Source: Candidatus Parcubacteria bacterium
GTDB taxonomy: Bacteria; Patescibacteriota; Minisyncoccia; UBA6257; 2-01-FULL-56-20
Direction: 5' to 3'
Assembly: GCA_027450205.1 (NCBI GenBank)
Contig: DAIDJL010000004.1
Location: 139,932 to 203,931, forward strand
DNA length: 64,000 nucleotides
The notes below the pieces were generated by a model that saw only the letters and a list, made by a program, of their open reading frames with translations, ran no database searches and was not told the DNA's origin. This document shows, piece after piece, positions 27,976-45,747 of the stretch. How positions within the stretch are numbered: the stretch's first letter is position 1; each line of letters begins with the position of its first letter. The translations under genes and the position numbers were made by a program.

Positions 27976-28073
27976 ATGTCTCTAACATCTCGGCAGAGGC
28001 TTTTGCTGGTGACCTTGGTCCTTGCCCTCATTTCAATCCTATTTCGGATGATTTCCCCTCATGCCGCCCCTTA
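27976..28073 (+). CDS. Unlisted 32-aa hydrophobic peptide (MSLTSRQRLLLVTLVLALISILFRMISPHAAP) with its own promoter, RBS and terminator
   Basis: Promoter TTGATA-17-TATATT at about 27925-27953; RBS GAGGAGAAAAACC-ATG; stop overlaps a CCGCCCC-ttaaaaa-GGGCGG hairpin followed by TTTAACTTT. Confidence 0.35.
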
Positions 28074-28083
28074 AAAAGGGCGG

Positions 28084-28123
28084 TTTAACTTTGTGCGGGG
28101 TATCGGACCAGGTTCGAACCTAT
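28084..28123 (-). repeat. Repeat A: degenerate copy of the tRNA-Tyr 3' end (T-loop to acceptor), placed immediately 3' of the SET gene
   Basis: Minus-strand reading AAATAGGTTCGAACCTGGTCCGATACCCCGCACAAAG versus the tRNA-Tyr 3' end AGGTTCGAATCCTGCCCGGCGCA. Confidence 0.5.
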
Positions 28124-28124
28124 T

Positions 28125-28532
28125 TCAGTCGTTGAGATAGGGGTCTGTGCTCATTGCGTCAGCCGCATCGAAGGTCCGATAGTTGATCAATATCTCCTCC
28201 CCTGCTTCGATGTCCCGATTTGCAACCCCGCGTGTCTCTGGCTCGCCGTCAAACGGTACTACGTCGAGATTGTTCTTTGTTGATGAATGGTTCATAAAGC
28301 GTGCATCATCAGCGCAATAAATATATTCCCCGCTGTCCGTCGAAAGATAGGCATATCGGACGATGAGGTCTTTCTGTAACTGATCCCATGTCTCGACTTC
28401 TTTTGGATCAAACGAAAGATCAAACCGGGGATCATATTTCCATACACTCGTTCCTTTGGGAATTTTTTCCGTAGCAAACAATCCGAAACCTTCTATGCTA
28501 CTTTGCTTCACAATTGTTTTAACAACAAGCAT
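28125..28532 (-). CDS. Minimal SET-domain protein (vSET-like putative protein-lysine methyltransferase)
   Basis: EGFGLFA...; RFMNHSSTKNN corresponds to the NHSC pseudoknot motif; EEILINY post-SET-like; 135 aa. Leaderless extended -10 promoter TGaTATAAT 6 nt before the ATG. Confidence 0.6.
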   Translation of the reverse strand: MLVVKTIVKQSSIEGFGLFATEKIPKGTSVWKYDPRFDLSFDPKEVETWDQLQKDLIVRYAYLSTDSGEYIYCADDARFMNHSSTKNNLDVVPFDGEPETRGVANRDIEAGEEILINYRTFDAADAMSTDPYLND

Positions 28533-28579
28533 GTCTGTATTATATCAGACTATTAATTTAATGCGTTGAACGGGATTTG

Positions 28580-28732
28580 TGCGCCGGGCAGGATGGGGCG
28601 GATGGGAATCCGCCCCCGAATTGGTTCGCTCGTCGAAAATGAAAACCCGCCCTTGTCGCTTGCCCGTTTTCATTTTCTCCTCGCTGCCAATTCCCGAACC
28701 CTAAAGGGTTCTTATCCTGCCCACCATACGAG
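28580..28732 (-). ncRNA. R1: structured repeat element (copy 1 of 2). Ends with a 15-nt copy of the tRNA-Tyr 3' end. Strand and function unknown
   Basis: Homologous to R2 over conserved blocks with covarying hairpins (GGGGCGGAT/ATCCGCCCC versus GCGCGT/ACGCGC). Long-range pairing GGGCAGGAT/ATCCTGCCC. Confidence 0.45.
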
Positions 28733-28736
28733 TACT

Positions 28737-28765
28737 AAAACAGGATGCCAATGGCATCCTGTTTT
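28737..28765. terminator. Bidirectional terminator hairpin (AAAACAGGATGCC-aat-GGCATCCTGTTTT)
   Basis: Perfect 9-bp stem flanked by an A-run and a T-run. Confidence 0.65.
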
Positions 28766-28801
28766 AGTATGGTGCGGGACAGCGAACCAAATTCGAACCT
28801 A
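28762..28801 (-). repeat. Repeat B: degenerate tRNA-Tyr 3'-end copy abutting the ASCH gene stop
   Basis: Minus-strand reading AAAATAGGTTCGAATTTGGTTCGCTGTCCCGCACCA. Confidence 0.45.
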
Positions 28802-28803
28802 TT

Positions 28804-29196
28804 TTATAGCCGCTCGACCAGGATAAATTCTTCGCAGATAACCTTAGAATTGTCGTTAAATGAGCCGGAGAAGCCCTTAAAGAACTCTCTATGCTTCTCA
28901 CGCCATGCTTCAACATCTGGATCACCTTCCCCTTCCTTTTGGATAAAATCGTACTCAACCCCTAAAAATGACTTAACTTCGGCAGCAGTGTATTGAATAA
29001 TGCAAAATCGTTTACCGTCGCTGCCGAGGATGGCGGCATATTGCCCCTTCACTGGAATTGTTTTGCCCTCCTGCCACAATCCGGTTGTCGCGGTCTTTTC
29101 CCCGGAAAGCACGAGTTGTTTCAGGTGATCAGCCAATTCTTTATCATCACCGAAGTCCCATTCATATAACTGCATTTTTGACCAATCCTTTTCCAT
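28804..29196 (-). CDS. ASCH (ASC-1 homology, PUA-like) domain protein
   Basis: MQLYEWDFGDDKELADHLKQLVLSGEKTATTGLW: the ASCH-like N-terminal beta-barrel pattern; 130 aa. Confidence 0.5.
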   Translation of the reverse strand: MEKDWSKMQLYEWDFGDDKELADHLKQLVLSGEKTATTGLWQEGKTIPVKGQYAAILGSDGKRFCIIQYTAAEVKSFLGVEYDFIQKEGEGDPDVEAWREKHREFFKGFSGSFNDNSKVICEEFILVERL

Positions 29197-29206
29197 AATT
29201 TTTCAA

Positions 29207-29932
29207 TTATATCTTCTTTAGAAGCGGGCATACAAAACCCATGGCTTCAAATGGGCAATGCTCCTCATTTGGACGCTTGGCGTTTGATGGTTTTGATCCT
29301 CGCCGTAAATTGAGAACGCTACGCGGAGATTGCGCTTTTAGAATTTCGTTCAAATTATAATTGGCTATTACCTTTAATTGCGGATGGAGCTGAAAAAGAA
29401 CGTAATCTTTGCGTTCAGGGTGGGTGCGTCCTAGTCCGACTACCGGACATACCGCCCCAGTATTCTGCAAAGCGCTCGCTATCTCTTCCCATGAATTGAT
29501 CTGAGTTCCTGTTTGAATATGAAGCAGTATGATCGTTTTTGCATCGTAAGATTTTGCTTTAGATAATTTCGTCCTACTTAAAAATTTTCCAATATCCTCA
29601 TTTGGTGCGGGAAGAAATGAAACCACTTCAACATCTTGATATTCCCAGTGAGGAGCGTGCTCTCCCTCGGGCGGTAGAAAATGCCCAGTCCTTACATCCG
29701 GGCTACCTTCCAAATCTGCTACGGGTTGCATCCAATGATCACCTTCTGCGATTTGAATGCCGAGCAAAGCATAAGCTGCTACTAGTAGCTCATCAGCTTT
29801 TTTGAACGCCTTGGTAGTTTTTTGATCCGCAGGCATCGAATCTAAATGCTGGGCGTAATGATAAATGACGCTATGCGGCGCATACCAAATCGGGTCTTTT
29901 AGCCAGTATGCTTTGTCTCTTTCATTATTCAT
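29207..29932 (-). CDS. Hypothetical 241-aa protein, no recognisable motif
   Basis: ORF only. The start codon directly abuts repeat C and has no SD. Confidence 0.45.
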   Translation of the reverse strand: MNNERDKAYWLKDPIWYAPHSVIYHYAQHLDSMPADQKTTKAFKKADELLVAAYALLGIQIAEGDHWMQPVADLEGSPDVRTGHFLPPEGEHAPHWEYQDVEVVSFLPAPNEDIGKFLSRTKLSKAKSYDAKTIILLHIQTGTQINSWEEIASALQNTGAVCPVVGLGRTHPERKDYVLFQLHPQLKVIANYNLNEILKAQSPRSVLNLRRGSKPSNAKRPNEEHCPFEAMGFVCPLLKKI

Positions 29933-29966
29933 AAACTTTGTGCGGAGTATCGGACTATGTTCAAAC
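29927..29966 (-). repeat. Repeat C: degenerate tRNA-Tyr 3'-end copy between the NUDIX-fold gene and the 241-aa gene
   Basis: Minus-strand reading GGAAATAGGTTTGAACATAGTCCGATACTCCGCACAAAG, the closest match to repeat A. Confidence 0.5.
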
Positions 29967-29990
29967 CTATTTCCTTCAATTCTCTATTTC

Positions 29991-30416
29991 TTAATGATAC
30001 AAATCCAAGGCTTTCAGAAGCTTTACGGACGGAGGAACGAGGTCATATTGCGATAACATCGTCGTCGGTATCCAATCAACCCTTTCCGCACCCGTCGGCA
30101 CCCTTGGTTGGCCGCCGATATATTTACATATCAGATTCACATATGTGAACTCTTTTAAAATACCGTCATGATCGTTCTTTATTTCGGAATCCGAAGGTAT
30201 CGCACGATCATTCACTTCAACATCAATACCCAATCCTTCTTTTAGATAGTCTTTTAAGGTTGTTGAGTCTTCTTGTTTTGCCGTTGGCTCACATCCGAAA
30301 AGATACCACGTTTCTTTATACGGAGGAGATCCCGCAGGTTTTTTACGCATTAAAATCGAACCATCTTTTTCGATAACGGCGATCAGCAATTTCTTCTGAG
30401 GGAGATCGGATCTCAT
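29991..30416 (-). CDS. MutT-like NUDIX-fold protein with a degenerate Nudix box (catalytic Glu residues replaced by Lys)
   Basis: Collinear with MutT (LLIAVIEKDGSILMRKK...; C-terminal DLVPPSVKLLKAL). The box reads GCEPTAKQEDSTTLKDYLKEGLGI instead of GX5EX7REUXEEXGU. Confidence 0.45.
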   Translation of the reverse strand: MRSDLPQKKLLIAVIEKDGSILMRKKPAGSPPYKETWYLFGCEPTAKQEDSTTLKDYLKEGLGIDVEVNDRAIPSDSEIKNDHDGILKEFTYVNLICKYIGGQPRVPTGAERVDWIPTTMLSQYDLVPPSVKLLKALDLYH

Positions 30417-30441
30417 ACGATCATTCTACCACCTTTCTTTG

Positions 30442-30574
30442 TGCGCCGGGCAGGATGGCGCGTAAGAACGCGCGAAATTGGTTCGCTCGTCGAAAATGAA
30501 ATTCCCCTATTTCATTTTCTCCTCGCTGCCAATTCCCGAACCCTAAAGGGTTCTTATCCTGCCCACCATACGAG
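30442..30574 (-). ncRNA. R2: structured repeat element (copy 2), directly downstream of tRNA-Tyr. Ends with ATCCTGCCCGGCGCA identical to the tRNA 3' end
   Basis: See R1; the two share conserved blocks GAAATTGGTTCGCTCGTCGAAAATGAAA... and ...CATTTTCTCCTCGCTGCCAATTCCCGAACCCTAAAGGGTTCTTATCCTGCCCACCATACGAG. Confidence 0.45.
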
Positions 30575-30611
30575 CAAACAAAAACGGTACTAATGGTACC
30601 GTTTTTGTTTG
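30575..30611. terminator. Bidirectional terminator hairpin between tRNA-Tyr and R2
   Basis: CAAACAAAAACGGTAC-taatg-GTACCGTTTTTGTTTG. Confidence 0.65.
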
Positions 30612-30614
30612 TAG

Positions 30615-30698
30615 TGCGCCGGGCAGGATTCGAACCTGCGTAGCCCATAGGGCGACAGATTTACAGTCTGTTGCGATTGACCACTCCGCCACCGACGC
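30615..30698 (-). tRNA. tRNA-Tyr (anticodon GTA), class II long variable arm, CCA not encoded
   Basis: GCGTCGGTGGCGGAGTGGTCAATCGCAACAGACTGTAAATCTGTCGCCCTATGGGCTACGCAGGTTCGAATCCTGCCCGGCGCA. The acceptor pairs 7/7 (one G-U) and the T-loop is GGTTCGAATCC. Confidence 0.85.
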
Positions 30699-45640: not shown

Positions 45641-45711
45641 TGCCGGATCATCTAATGGTAGGATAGTGGACTCTGAATCCATTCATCTTGGTTCGAATCC
45701 AAGTCCGGCAG
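45641..45711 (+). tRNA. tRNA-Gln (anticodon CTG), U1:A72 with G73 discriminator
   Basis: TGCCGGATCATCTAATGGTAGGATAGTGGACTCTGAATCCATTCATCTTGGTTCGAATCCAAGTCCGGCAG folds into a cloverleaf. TATAAT lies at about 45633-45638. Confidence 0.8.
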
Positions 45712-45747
45712 CACGAGATTCTGCTATTGGCCTCTCGACGATCTTTC

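What the first reader, a model, noticed from the sequence alone, without database searches (positions are those of the whole stretch)
28580..30574. R1/R2: two homologous ~135-150 nt structured elements with compensatory hairpin variation, each terminating in the tRNA-Tyr 3' end
R2 (30442-30574) and R1 (28580-28732) share long identical blocks (…GAAATTGGTTCGCTCGTCGAAAATGAAA… and …CATTTTCTCCTCGCTGCCAATTCCCGAACCCTAAAGGGTTCTTATCCTGCCCACCATACGAG). Between the blocks, hairpins differ in sequence but keep perfect pairing: GGGGCGGAT/ATCCGCCCC versus GCGCGT/ACGCGC, and GAAAATGAAAAC…GTTTTCATTTTC versus GAAAATGAAAT…ATTTCATTTTC. Both have a 9-bp long-range closure, GGGCAGGAT with ATCCTGCCC. Covariation argues for a functional RNA or a structured DNA recombination site. 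On the plus strand each is followed by a strong hairpin plus T-run. On the minus strand each sits directly upstream of the promoter of a cargo gene (SET, NUDIX-fold). They match no standard family I can recognise: not tmRNA, RNase P, SRP, 6S or a riboswitch class. They could be an attC-like folded recombination site, a novel sRNA, or a tRNA-like decoy.
Basis: seen in the sequence. Interest (0 to 1): 0.8.

Follow-up and report, generated by a model that had tools for sequence, protein, structure and literature searches.

The report
RtT-like tRNA-Tyr trailer elements
The two repeats are real, structured copies of a divergent form of the enigmatic "RtT" element known from the E. coli tyrosine-tRNA operon; this class proves to be widespread and custom-matched to whichever tRNA it follows, and here it sits inside a swap-prone array of small gene cassettes.

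Summary
R1 (28579-28732) and R2 (30441-30574), read on the minus strand (the tRNA-Tyr strand), fold into the same four-way junction. Sixteen relatives from other genomes and metagenomes support 43 base pairs, 13 with compensatory changes.

The claim of "no known family" is wrong. They are a divergent Patescibacteria form of the RtT class (Rfam RF00391, the 178-bp tyrT repeats of E. coli), scoring below Rfam's threshold.

- **Anatomy:** each element has a 5' arm antisense to the tRNA's own positions ~50-70, then a sense copy of 50-58, then an inserted two-hairpin module, then a sense copy of 59-76.
- **Distribution:** the same design follows Tyr, Lys, Pro, Ser, Gln, Glu, Met, Gly, Thr, Arg and Ala tRNAs. 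It occurs in Proteobacteria, Bacteroidota and Patescibacteria, always matched to the local tRNA.
- **Most likely role:** an RNA transcribed onward from the tRNA and released by tRNA 3'-end processing. This is inferred and its function is unknown.
- **Local context:** in this lineage R2 is the conserved first unit after tRNA-Tyr. Downstream lies a variable array of single-gene cassettes, each ending in a 27-nt tRNA-3'-like site. Two near-identical genomes differ exactly at those sites.
- **Missing partner:** no recombinase was found in the window.

Verdict: a new variant of a known but unexplained kind.

The parts
30614..30698 (-). tRNA-Tyr(GTA) gene. Its last 16 nt (ATCCTGCCCGGCGCAC, T-loop position 59 to just past the discriminator) are repeated at the end of R2 and R1. 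CCA is not encoded.
   Evidence: ARAGORN; Rfam tRNA model, 61.9 bits; repeat family D3.
30575..30611 (.). Perfect 16-bp palindromic hairpin with an A-run on one side and a T-run on the other. It looks like a bidirectional terminator and lies between tRNA-Tyr and R2.
   Evidence: Inverted repeat I3. Equivalent hairpins with compensatory inner stems precede the element in related loci.
30441..30574 (-). R2, an RtT-like element and the first unit after tRNA-Tyr. In minus-strand order it comprises a 5' flank CTCGTATGGT; the closing helix GGGCAGGAT/ATCCTGCCC; hairpin 1 GAACCC-TTTA-GGGTTC; a long hairpin 2 with invariant purine-rich internal loops (CAGCGAGGAG / CGACGAGCGAA); hairpin 3 GCGCGT/ACGCGC; and a 3' tail GGCGCAC.
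   Evidence: Fold, z = -6.95; model R1, 134 bits; Rfam RtT full-length alignment, 19.9 bits. Its position after tRNA-Tyr is conserved in related genomes.
29991..30416 (-). Cassette gene of 141 aa, weakly NUDIX-like.
   Evidence: No Pfam hit; PDB NUDIX hydrolases, best E = 1e-3; PADLOC candidate PDC-S07, E = 9e-8.
29940..29966 (-). 27-nt tRNA-3'-like cassette-end site (D2c): GTTTGAA-CATA-GTCC-GATACTCC-GCAC.
   Evidence: Repeat family D2; site pattern, 3 minus-strand hits in the islet (a fourth hit is the 3' end of tRNA-Gln on the plus strand) against 0.005 expected per window.
29207..29932 (-). Cassette gene of 241 aa with no recognisable family.
   Evidence: No Pfam, PDB or PADLOC match.
28804..29196 (-). 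Cassette gene of 130 aa with an ASCH domain.
   Evidence: Pfam PF04266, E = 4e-15.
28772..28798 (-). 27-nt cassette-end site (D2b), a diverged copy. It contains a 15-nt inverted copy of the 3' strand of R's hairpin 2.
   Evidence: (D2, I12).
28733..28769 (.). Perfect 18-bp palindromic hairpin between D2b and R1. It is the counterpart of the hairpin that precedes R2.
   Evidence: Inverted repeat I1.
28579..28732 (-). R1, the second RtT-like element. It has the same architecture as R2 but a longer apex on hairpin 2 and a different hairpin 3 (GGGGCGGAT/ATCCGCCCC).
   Evidence: Fold, z = -7.06; model R1, 144 bits; alignment A1.
28125..28532 (-). Cassette gene of 135 aa with a SET domain. In a related genome the same cassette lies directly after tRNA-Tyr, and in another it lies after a D2 site.
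   Evidence: Pfam PF00856, E = 5e-16; contexts L194 and L195.
28093..28119 (-). 27-nt cassette-end site (D2a), the canonical form GTTCGAACCTGGTCCGATACCCCGCAC. It is 100% identical to copies that follow unrelated genes in three other loci (L012, L039, L140).
28063..28084 (.). G+C-rich hairpin that closes the islet on the side of the DUF488 and recO genes.
   Evidence: Terminator-like site.

Best explanation
R1 and R2 are two copies of an RtT-type tRNA-trailer element. This class was first seen as the 178-bp repeats of the E. coli tyrT operon. Here it appears in a divergent Patescibacteria (Paceibacterota-like) form, on the strand of tRNA-Tyr.

**Shown**
- Each element is assembled from the tRNA's own 3' part. 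It carries a 5' arm antisense to tRNA positions ~50-70, mismatched at 57-58.
- Next comes a sense copy of 50-58, then an inserted two-hairpin module at the T-loop position, then a sense copy of 59-76.
- The two tRNA-derived duplexes and the two insert hairpins form a four-way junction. Its stems co-vary while its internal loops stay invariant.
- The same design follows many different tRNAs in several phyla. In every case both the sense and the antisense parts match the local tRNA.

**Inferred**
- It is made as RNA by transcription running on from the tRNA.
- It is trimmed to a defined end because it carries the tRNA's own T-stem, acceptor 3' strand and trailer.
- It then acts as a stable, uncharged mimic of the tRNA's T-stem and 3' end, serving as a decoy or ligand for a factor that reads tRNA ends. 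The only experimental hint, from E. coli, points to the response to amino-acid starvation.
- The sense parts are kept identical to the tRNA by gene conversion or unequal crossing-over between the direct repeats. The antisense arm follows by selection for pairing or by palindrome correction.

**In this lineage**
- R2 is the conserved first unit after tRNA-Tyr.
- R1 is a second copy now separated from it by inserted gene cassettes.
For: **Link to RtT**
- The Rfam RtT model aligns full length to R2 with the same outer helix and tail.
- The window-type model aligns full length to the four E. coli RtT copies, at 20-25 bits.
- The E. coli locus has the same logic.

**The design is general**
- Of 187 matches to the core pattern in fetched loci, 126 have a same-strand tRNA within 1.5 kb upstream. 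Of these, 86 end in an exact 12-mer of that tRNA's 3' end. About a dozen amino-acid specificities are represented.
- The left edge of the repeat is fixed at T-loop position 58/59.
- The 5' arm is complementary to tRNA-specific positions 63-70 and 47-51.
- Hairpin 1 copies tRNA positions 50-58.
- The window-type insert occurs with Tyr, Ser and Met tRNAs, and each time the closing helix is re-matched to that tRNA.

**Selection on a fold**
- 43 pairs, 13 of them compensatory; no shuffle out of 500 reaches the observed values on four of the five measures, and 2 of 500 do on the count of further pair types.

**Strand**
- The orientation always equals that of the tRNA.
- G.U outnumbers A.C 19 to 6 in that sense (p = 0.015).
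- In gammaproteobacterial loci the units lie between tRNA genes of one array, so they are necessarily co-transcribed.
- In E. coli a unit is the experimentally detected rttR RNA (PMC3318445).

**Long-term retention**
- Homology among related genomes, at 68-81% identity, runs through tRNA-Tyr and R.

**No protein partner**
- No protein family is shared across the neighbourhoods of different tRNA types.
Against: - A strong terminator-like hairpin lies between the tRNA (or D2b) and each element, and there is no room for a promoter and none is conserved. Expression would therefore depend on read-through.
- There are no transcript data for this organism.
- R2 scores 19.9 bits against Rfam's 45, and R1 was not reported at all.
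- The relatives were collected with a pattern derived from E. coli and the window. Conservation of GGAT-N-AGAAC, GGTTCG and AGCGAG is therefore partly imposed by the search.
- Much of that core is simply the universal T-loop read in both senses, so part of the resemblance could be convergent.
- The order of the AGCGAG and GAGCGA motifs differs between the proteobacterial and Patescibacteria inserts.
- The G.U excess rests on 16 related sequences. A symmetric count on the closing helix of 73 elements is uninformative, at 5 versus 2.
- The proposed function is inference only.
Confidence: 0.6

Rival explanations
1. R acts at the DNA level as a folded recombination site or landing pad of the cassette array, analogous to attI/attC or the CTX-phage attP. 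A single strand folds so that the closing helix and hairpin 1 rebuild a double-stranded copy of the tRNA gene's T-arm/acceptor site. A recombinase encoded elsewhere inserts cassettes at its terminal GCAC, which spares the tRNA gene.
For: - Cassette breakpoints between two 99%-identical genomes fall exactly at ...GCAC of tRNA-like sites.
- Among related genomes, homology stops at R's 3' GCAC and the variable region begins there.
- R's stems reproduce the tRNA gene sequence in duplex form, with mismatches only at T-loop positions 57-58. Many tRNA-targeting integrases are known to cross over in that region (my own knowledge).
- The R units themselves are bounded by GCAC.
Against: - Gene cassettes end in a plain 27-nt site with no antisense partner.
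- Arrays in L194 and L195 work without any R.
- In Proteobacteria the same class sits inside tRNA operons as tandem spacers, with no cassettes.
- Fifty window ORFs include no integrase, resolvase or transposase.
- No recombinase recurs near the elements.
Confidence: 0.2
2. R is an evolutionary by-product with no function of its own. It would be a scar of repeated duplication or integration at the tRNA 3' end, made palindromic by template switching and persisting by hitch-hiking.
For: - Other, unrelated unit types also end in the tRNA 3' end: the L078 type A units and L097 unit 1.
- Vestigial complementarity extends beyond the stable helix.
- Copy number varies between genomes.
Against: - There are compensatory changes in four helices. 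The internal loops stay invariant across elements attached to different tRNAs and found in unrelated flanks.
- The element is retained next to tRNA-Tyr across genomes whose housekeeping flanks are only 68-81% identical.
Confidence: 0.12
3. The functional product is a plus-strand small RNA. It would start with a segment complementary to the 3' end of tRNA-Tyr and end at the hairpin plus T-run.
For: - On the plus strand each element is followed by a strong hairpin and a T-run.
- The plus strand folds about equally well, with z = -7.8 and -6.6.
Against: - The hairpins are symmetric.
- The element always has the orientation of the tRNA in 126 loci.
- G.U outnumbers A.C 19 to 6 on the minus sense.
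- The E. coli product is the sense RNA (PMC3318445).
- No promoter-like site stands out on the plus strand. The region has 5 such sites, against 5.1 expected.
Confidence: 0.05

Closest known systems
RtT RNA (Rfam RF00391; rttR and the 178-bp repeats of the E. coli tyrT-tyrV operon)
   Same: - It lies just downstream of a tRNA gene on the same strand.
- It ends in the tRNA's last 16-21 nt, starting at T-loop position 58/59.
- Its 5' strand pairs with that segment.
- It carries the GGAU-N-AGAAC...GGUUCG...AGCGAG landmarks.
- The unit length is about 170-180 nt.
- It tends to be repeated.
- Its function is unknown.
   Different: - It scores below Rfam's threshold, at 19.9 bits against 45.
- The insert is one long hairpin with tandem G.A loops plus a third hairpin, rather than several short hairpins.
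- A terminator-like hairpin precedes each unit.
- CCA is not encoded.
- The two copies are 1.86 kb apart with genes between them.
- The host is a Patescibacteria-type genome.
Integron gene cassettes and attC sites
   Same: - The islet is an array of small, mostly single-gene units. Each ends in a short conserved site in one orientation.
- Unit content differs between near-identical genomes exactly at those sites.
- R is a strand-specific fold of about attC size.
   Different: - There is no GTTRRRY / RYYYAAC core.
- No integron integrase is present in the window.
- The array is anchored on a tRNA 3' end.
- Cassette genes lie in either orientation.
- The cassette-end site is 27 nt, looks like a tRNA 3' end, and is not a hairpin.
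Integrative elements and genomic islands at tRNA genes (attL/attR repeats of the tRNA 3' end; tandem accretion, for example tycheposons). Cited from my own knowledge.
   Same: - Direct repeats of the tRNA 3' end bound the inserted DNA.
- The repeats start in the T-loop.
- Units accumulate in tandem downstream of the tRNA.
   Different: - The units are 0.13-1.4 kb rather than several kb to tens of kb.
- No integrase is carried.
- R additionally holds an antisense copy of the tRNA segment and a conserved structured insert.
tRNA 3' external transcribed spacer RNAs (such as 3'ETS-leuZ) and tRNA-like structures or minihelices. Cited from my own knowledge.
   Same: - It would be a non-coding product of a tRNA transcript downstream of the tRNA.
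- It has a helix plus a single-stranded 3' end that resembles the acceptor/T-arm stack.
   Different: - It contains an exact copy of the tRNA's end together with its antisense.
- It is much more structured.
- It is not known to pair with any sRNA or mRNA.

Membership tests
RtT RNA (RF00391) | Reaches the family's curated score (45 bits) with the Rfam covariance model. | tested here: not met
   R2 scores 19.9 bits (E = 1.3 over 4227 families in 2.9 kb) and aligns to model positions 1-130. R1 was not reported at E <= 10. Nothing appears in the gathering-threshold scan of the window.
RtT RNA (RF00391) | Lies downstream of a tRNA gene on the same strand. | tested here: met
   R2 starts 40 nt after tRNA-Tyr. 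R1 lies 1.9 kb further on the same strand.
RtT RNA (RF00391) | The 3' end repeats the last ~19 nt of the tRNA, beginning in the T-loop. | tested here: met
   The same 16 nt, ATCCTGCCCGGCGCAC, occur in the tRNA, R2 and R1. The E. coli units have 19-21 nt starting at the same position.
RtT RNA (RF00391) | Outer helix formed by a 5' strand and the tRNA-like segment, enclosing the landmarks GGAU-N-AGAAC, GGUUCG and AGCGAG. | tested here: met
   The pattern matches E. coli three times and the window twice, against 0.00 expected.
RtT RNA (RF00391) | Reciprocal detection by a model built from the candidate's own relatives. | tested here: met
   Model R1 hits all four E. coli copies full length, at 20.2-25.2 bits and E = 3e-4 to 8e-3 in 0.6 Mb. 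The E-values are rough, and the shared landmarks contribute to the score.
RtT RNA (RF00391) | Released as a stable RNA from the tRNA primary transcript. | not testable with these tools
   This is known for E. coli rttR (PMC3318445, citing Bosl and Kersten 1991). No expression data exist for this window.
Integron attC site | Imperfect palindrome with R''/L''...L'/R' boxes and a GTTRRRY core. | tested here: not met
   The sequences of R1, R2 and the 27-nt sites show no such core. R is a four-way junction, not a single hairpin.
Integron attC site | An integron integrase (tyrosine recombinase) adjacent to the array. | tested here: not met
   Fifty window ORFs were scanned against Pfam and none is a recombinase. 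The flanks are rpsB, tsf and recO.
Integron attC site | The site marks the boundary of exchangeable cassettes. | tested here: inconclusive
   This is shown for the 27-nt D2 sites. For R itself there is only indirect evidence: homology between related genomes ends at its 3' GCAC.
tRNA / tmRNA gene | Recognised by ARAGORN or by the Rfam tRNA and tmRNA models. | tested here: not met
   Only tRNA-Tyr and tRNA-Gln are called in the window.
attL/attR scar of an integrase-borne island at a tRNA gene | Direct repeat of the tRNA 3' end bounding the inserted DNA. | tested here: met
   
attL/attR scar of an integrase-borne island at a tRNA gene | An integrase gene inside the bounded DNA. | tested here: not met
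   The units hold only the hairpin and R, or small non-recombinase genes. No protein family is shared across loci.

The most novel reading that the evidence does not exclude
The RtT-type elements and the 27-nt tRNA-3'-like sites are the cis-acting parts of an undescribed, tRNA-anchored cassette-capture system in Patescibacteria, a functional analogue of an integron whose recombinase is encoded elsewhere. In this reading R is the folded landing pad that rebuilds the tRNA gene's recombination site in one strand. By extension, the RtT repeats of E. coli and the matched elements behind many other tRNAs would be relics or working sites of the same kind of machinery.
Probability: 0.15. Interest if true: 0.85.

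Novelty: new variant of a known kind. Interest (0 to 1): 0.62.

Why it matters
RtT has been an orphan curiosity of the E. coli tyrT operon since the 1970s, with no known function.

- **A testable design rule.** The same construction recurs behind about a dozen different tRNAs in Proteobacteria, Bacteroidota and Patescibacteria: an antisense copy plus a split sense copy of the tRNA's own T-arm/acceptor end, wrapped around a conserved insert. This turns the curiosity into a general class. The rule also predicts the partner, namely something that reads the T-stem and 3' end of a specific tRNA.
- **A practical search recipe.** The current Rfam model misses most of the class.
- **A separate lead.** The neighbouring array of single-gene cassettes ends in 27-nt tRNA-like sites, and two 99%-identical genomes differ exactly at those sites. 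This points to site-specific gene shuffling in reduced Patescibacteria genomes, which are not known for integron-like systems.

Tried and rejected
- **Rfam at gathering thresholds.** Only two tRNAs are found in the window. Apart from RtT, the weak hits are noise: plastid UTRs lying on the tRNA itself, snoRNAs, a miRNA and the ylbH leader.
- **BLASTN of the region against E. coli genomes.** It finds only tRNA-Tyr.
- **Viral contig scan with the core pattern.** It returns one E. coli-like fragment and some coding false positives.
- **False positives in the genome scan.** Many hits were set aside. These include tRNA-Gln genes of Ignavibacteria and Bacteroidetes, and coding regions in Parvibaculum, Phycisphaerales and others.
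- **An own promoter for R.** The one promoter-like site, before R1, would start transcription inside the closing helix. Overall the region has 5 such sites against 5.1 expected.
- **A conserved neighbouring protein.** Clustering 356 ORFs around 67 loci gave only lineage-specific synteny.
- **A recombinase in the window.** None was found in 50 ORFs.
- **Defence-system models.** They hit only the NUDIX-like protein, and only a candidate family.
- **Exact-sequence look-up of the SET protein.** It failed, so homologues were used instead.
- **A strand test by G.U versus A.C on the closing helix of 73 elements.** It was uninformative. A first version (28 versus 36) was biased by counting helix ends. 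The symmetric version gives 5 versus 2.
- **Literature searches.** They found no description of a broad RtT-like class or of tRNA-anchored cassette arrays in Patescibacteria. The library is incomplete, so this is weak evidence of novelty.
- **Readings considered and dropped.**
  - Retron ncRNA: no reverse transcriptase is present.
  - Bridge or guide RNAs of IS110 or IS605 type: there is no such gene, and the guide-like parts are paired to each other.
  - Self-cleaving ribozymes: no Rfam signal.
  - tRNA introns: the 5' half of a tRNA is absent.


Full report
**1. What is in the sequence**

tRNA-Tyr(GTA) lies on the minus strand at 30614-30698. Read on that strand, the following parts come in order:
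- a perfect palindromic hairpin, 30611-30575;
- R2, 30574-30441;
- a 141-aa gene;
- a 40-nt repeat (D2c);
- a 241-aa gene and an ASCH gene;
- a second copy of the repeat (D2b);
- a second palindromic hairpin, 28769-28733;
- R1, 28732-28579;
- a SET-domain gene;
- a third copy of the repeat (D2a);
- a G+C-rich hairpin.

The islet lies between rpsB-tsf-tRNA-Tyr on one side and DUF488-recO on the other.

R1 and R2 each end in ATCCTGCCCGGCGCAC, the same 16 nt as the tRNA. Both fold into the same four-way junction:
- a 9-10-bp closing helix;
- hairpin 1, GAACCC/GGGTTC;
- a long hairpin 2 with purine-rich internal loops;
- hairpin 3.

The z-scores are about -7.

**2. It is related to a known element**

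A permissive Rfam scan aligns R2 end to end with RF00391, the RtT RNA. The score is 19.9 bits, well under the curated 45. The alignment shares three things:
- the outer helix (GGGCAGGAU/AUCCUGCCC versus GgGaaGGAU/AUCCuuCcC);
- the stretch GAU-N-AGAAC;
- a 3' tail that in each organism is the end of its own tRNA-Tyr.

I fetched the E. coli K-12 tyrT locus. It holds four RtT units at 133-137 bits, one between tyrT and tyrV and three after tyrV. Each ends in AATCCTTCCCCCACCACCA, the end of E. coli tRNA-Tyr.

Papers in the library say that rttR is one of these repeat units. They also say its function is unknown beyond a suggested link to amino-acid starvation (PMC3318445, PMC7542023, bioRxiv 10.1101/2024.07.17.603846).

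**3. The class is wide and matched to each tRNA**

I built a pattern from the landmarks shared by E. coli and the window (GGAT-N-AGAA, GGTTCG, AGCGAG). It matches both, against 0.00 expected by chance.

*Species-representative genomes.* After removing tRNA-Gln genes and coding hits, the scan found elements of the same design in four groups:
- Enterobacterales;
- alphaproteobacterial MAGs, behind tRNA-Lys;
- Alistipes, behind tRNA-Glu;
- Saccharibacteria (behind tRNA-Ser), a Nanosyncoccus MAG and Paceibacterota.

*Counts over all loci.*
- Of 187 matches, 126 have a same-strand tRNA within 1.5 kb upstream.
- Of these, 86 carry an exact 12-mer of that tRNA's 3' end at their own 3' end.
- The tRNAs are Lys, Tyr, Pro, Ser, Gln, Glu, Ala, Thr, Met, Arg and Gly.
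- The left edge of the tRNA/element repeat is fixed at T-loop position 58/59.
- The right edge varies, and often runs on through the trailer and terminator.

*What Rfam covers.* Rfam's RtT model also catches the proteobacterial copies behind tRNA-Pro, Lys and Gln, at 62-99 bits. It misses the Patescibacteria, alphaproteobacterial and Bacteroidota types and several others.

**4. Anatomy**

Position-by-position comparison with the upstream tRNA gives the following picture.
- The 5' arm is complementary to tRNA positions about 47-70, except at 57-58. Complementarity is 88-100% at 59-63, falls to 37-68% at 64-70, and is 51-63% at 48-51, against roughly 25-30% beyond 70.
- The 3' strand of hairpin 1 copies tRNA positions 50-58, with 86% identity at 51 and 77% at 58.

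The element therefore reads: antisense(~70-50), loop, sense(50-58), insert, sense(59-76).

Part of the conserved core is thus the universal T-loop read in both senses. This weakens sequence similarity alone as proof of common descent. The tRNA-specific matching, the fixed insertion point and the position behind the tRNA do not depend on the search pattern.

Within a lineage the insert is conserved while the outer arms are swapped:
- the window-type insert occurs with Tyr, Ser(GCT) and Met tRNAs;
- the E. coli-type insert occurs with Tyr, Lys, Pro and Gln tRNAs.

**5. Structure is under selection**

Sixteen window-type elements (R1, R2 and 14 from other sources) align over 162 columns. RNAalifold recovers the four-way junction.
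- There are 43 pairs, 97.8% of cells are paired, and 13 pairs changed on both sides.
- No shuffle out of 500 reaches the observed values on four of the five measures, and 2 of 500 do on the count of further pair types. Slid controls give 32-50% paired.
- The internal loops CAGCGAGGAG and CGACGAGCGAA are invariant. They can form two tandem G.A motifs.
- A covariance model finds only R1 and R2 in the window, at 144 and 134 bits.
- The same model aligns full length to the four E. coli units, at 20-25 bits, and to the other lineages.

**6. Which strand, RNA or DNA?**

For an RNA on the tRNA strand:
- The orientation always equals that of the tRNA.
- In gammaproteobacterial loci the units lie between tRNA genes of one array.
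- The E. coli unit is a detected RNA (PMC3318445).
- G.U pairs outnumber A.C pairs 19 to 6 in the alignment (p = 0.015). The sequences are related, however, and a symmetric count on 73 closing helices is uninformative.

Against:
- In the window and its relatives a strong, symmetric terminator-like hairpin precedes each element. No promoter is evident.

No protein family recurs next to the elements across tRNA types.

**7. The surroundings are a cassette array**

The D2 repeat is a fixed-length 27-nt site, GTTCGAA-N4-GTCC-N8-GCAC. It resembles a tRNA 3' end.
- It has three minus-strand copies in the islet (a fourth pattern hit in the window is the 3' end of tRNA-Gln), against 0.005 expected per window.
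- Its canonical form is 100% identical after unrelated genes in three other loci.

Homologues of the SET protein led to two genomes that are syntenic with the window.
- In L194 the SET cassette starts right after the GCAC of tRNA-Tyr.
- In L195 the identical cassette starts right after the GCAC of a D2 site.
- The two genomes are 99.2-99.8% identical in two blocks that begin exactly at such sites. Between the blocks they hold unrelated DNA, 2163 versus 1138 nt.
- L194 has four sites by the strict pattern, plus further D2-like copies found by mismatch search or by eye. L195 has five. All lie in the tRNA's orientation, and each follows a small gene in either orientation.

This is the signature of site-specific cassette exchange at GCAC.

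How R relates to the array:
- These arrays contain no R.
- In seven other related loci R is the first unit after tRNA-Tyr. Homology at 68-81% runs from rpsB and tsf through the tRNA and R and stops at R's 3' end.
- In L039 a cassette with a D2 site lies between the tRNA and R.
- In L012, tRNA-Tyr 3' fragments, R and D2 occur with no tRNA-Tyr gene within the 8-kb locus.

Fifty window ORFs contain no recombinase.

**8. Reading**

Shown:
- R1 and R2 are conserved, structured elements.
- They belong to a class defined by position and by matching to the tRNA.
- E. coli RtT is the described member of that class.
- They sit in a cassette array whose junctions are tRNA-like GCAC sites.

Inferred:
- They act as RNA made by read-through from the tRNA.
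- They are trimmed by the tRNA 3'-end machinery.
- They serve as a mimic of the tRNA's T-stem and 3' end.
- Their sense parts are homogenised with the tRNA by gene conversion.

The main rival is a DNA-level role as a folded landing pad for the cassette system. The end of homology at R's GCAC favours this rival. Three things count against it: arrays exist without R, the cassette sites are unfolded, and in Proteobacteria the class sits in tRNA operons.

**9. Limits**

- The relatives were gathered with a pattern, so the census is biased and incomplete.
- The metagenome scan was truncated.
- Model E-values are rough.
- Homology of the insert between the Patescibacteria and E. coli types is plausible but not proven.
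- There are no expression data.
- The literature library is partial.

Noticed in passing
window 28093-28119, 28772-28798, 29940-29966 (minus strand); L194 and L195: A 27-nt fixed-length site, GTTCGAA-N4-GTCC-N8-GCAC, ends every small cassette downstream of tRNA-Tyr. Two 99%-identical genomes differ in cassette content exactly at these sites. No recombinase was found nearby.
   Followed up: partly
L012 1081-1200 and 3136-3265: Two copies of a long hairpin of about 125 nt share a conserved core (CGGGCACGGTGTTCCGTTC.GCTGAACGGCCACCTCTTGCCTCGCCGCCTTCGCGGCTCCGGCTGTCCCTC) but have different, compensating outer stems. Each lies 35-45 nt upstream of a tRNA-Tyr 3' fragment. The element is absent from the window and from Rfam.
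   Followed up: partly
L012 4437-4507 (minus strand): A 71-nt stretch matches the Rfam tmRNA model across its ends, at 28.8 bits (below the gathering score). ARAGORN calls nothing there. It may be a fragment or a reduced tRNA-like domain next to the cassette region.
   Followed up: no
window 28781-28795 versus 30473-30487: The diverged cassette-end site D2b, just upstream of R1, contains a 15-nt inverted copy (93%) of the 3' strand of R's long hairpin. It could therefore pair with R1 or R2 as an alternative structure, or it may be a rearrangement relic.
   Followed up: no
L078 (tRNA-Ala array) and L097 unit 1: Other, unrelated unit types of about 180 nt also end in the local tRNA's 3' end, and in L078 they alternate with RtT-like units. 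Repeats of the tRNA end therefore bound more than one kind of small unit.
   Followed up: no
window 29991-30416 (minus strand): The 141-aa NUDIX-like cassette protein matches PADLOC candidate defence family PDC-S07 (E = 9e-8).
   Followed up: no
L197 and L198: In another Patescibacteria-like genome a SET homologue lies next to a NUDIX gene. They sit a few kb from a large serine recombinase and a tRNA-Ser gene, with no 27-nt site nearby. This suggests the same cargo genes also travel on a conventional integrative element.
   Followed up: no
window 28566-28826 (+) and 30421-30648 (-): Mechanical ORFs of 86 and 75 aa run across R1 and R2. They recur in related loci only because the RNA-like sequence is conserved, and they are probably not genes. 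The E. coli 'tpr' ORF inside RtT is a comparable case.
   Followed up: partly
window 45641-45712 (+): The second tRNA of the window, tRNA-Gln(CTG), has no RtT-like element or cassette array behind it.
   Followed up: yes
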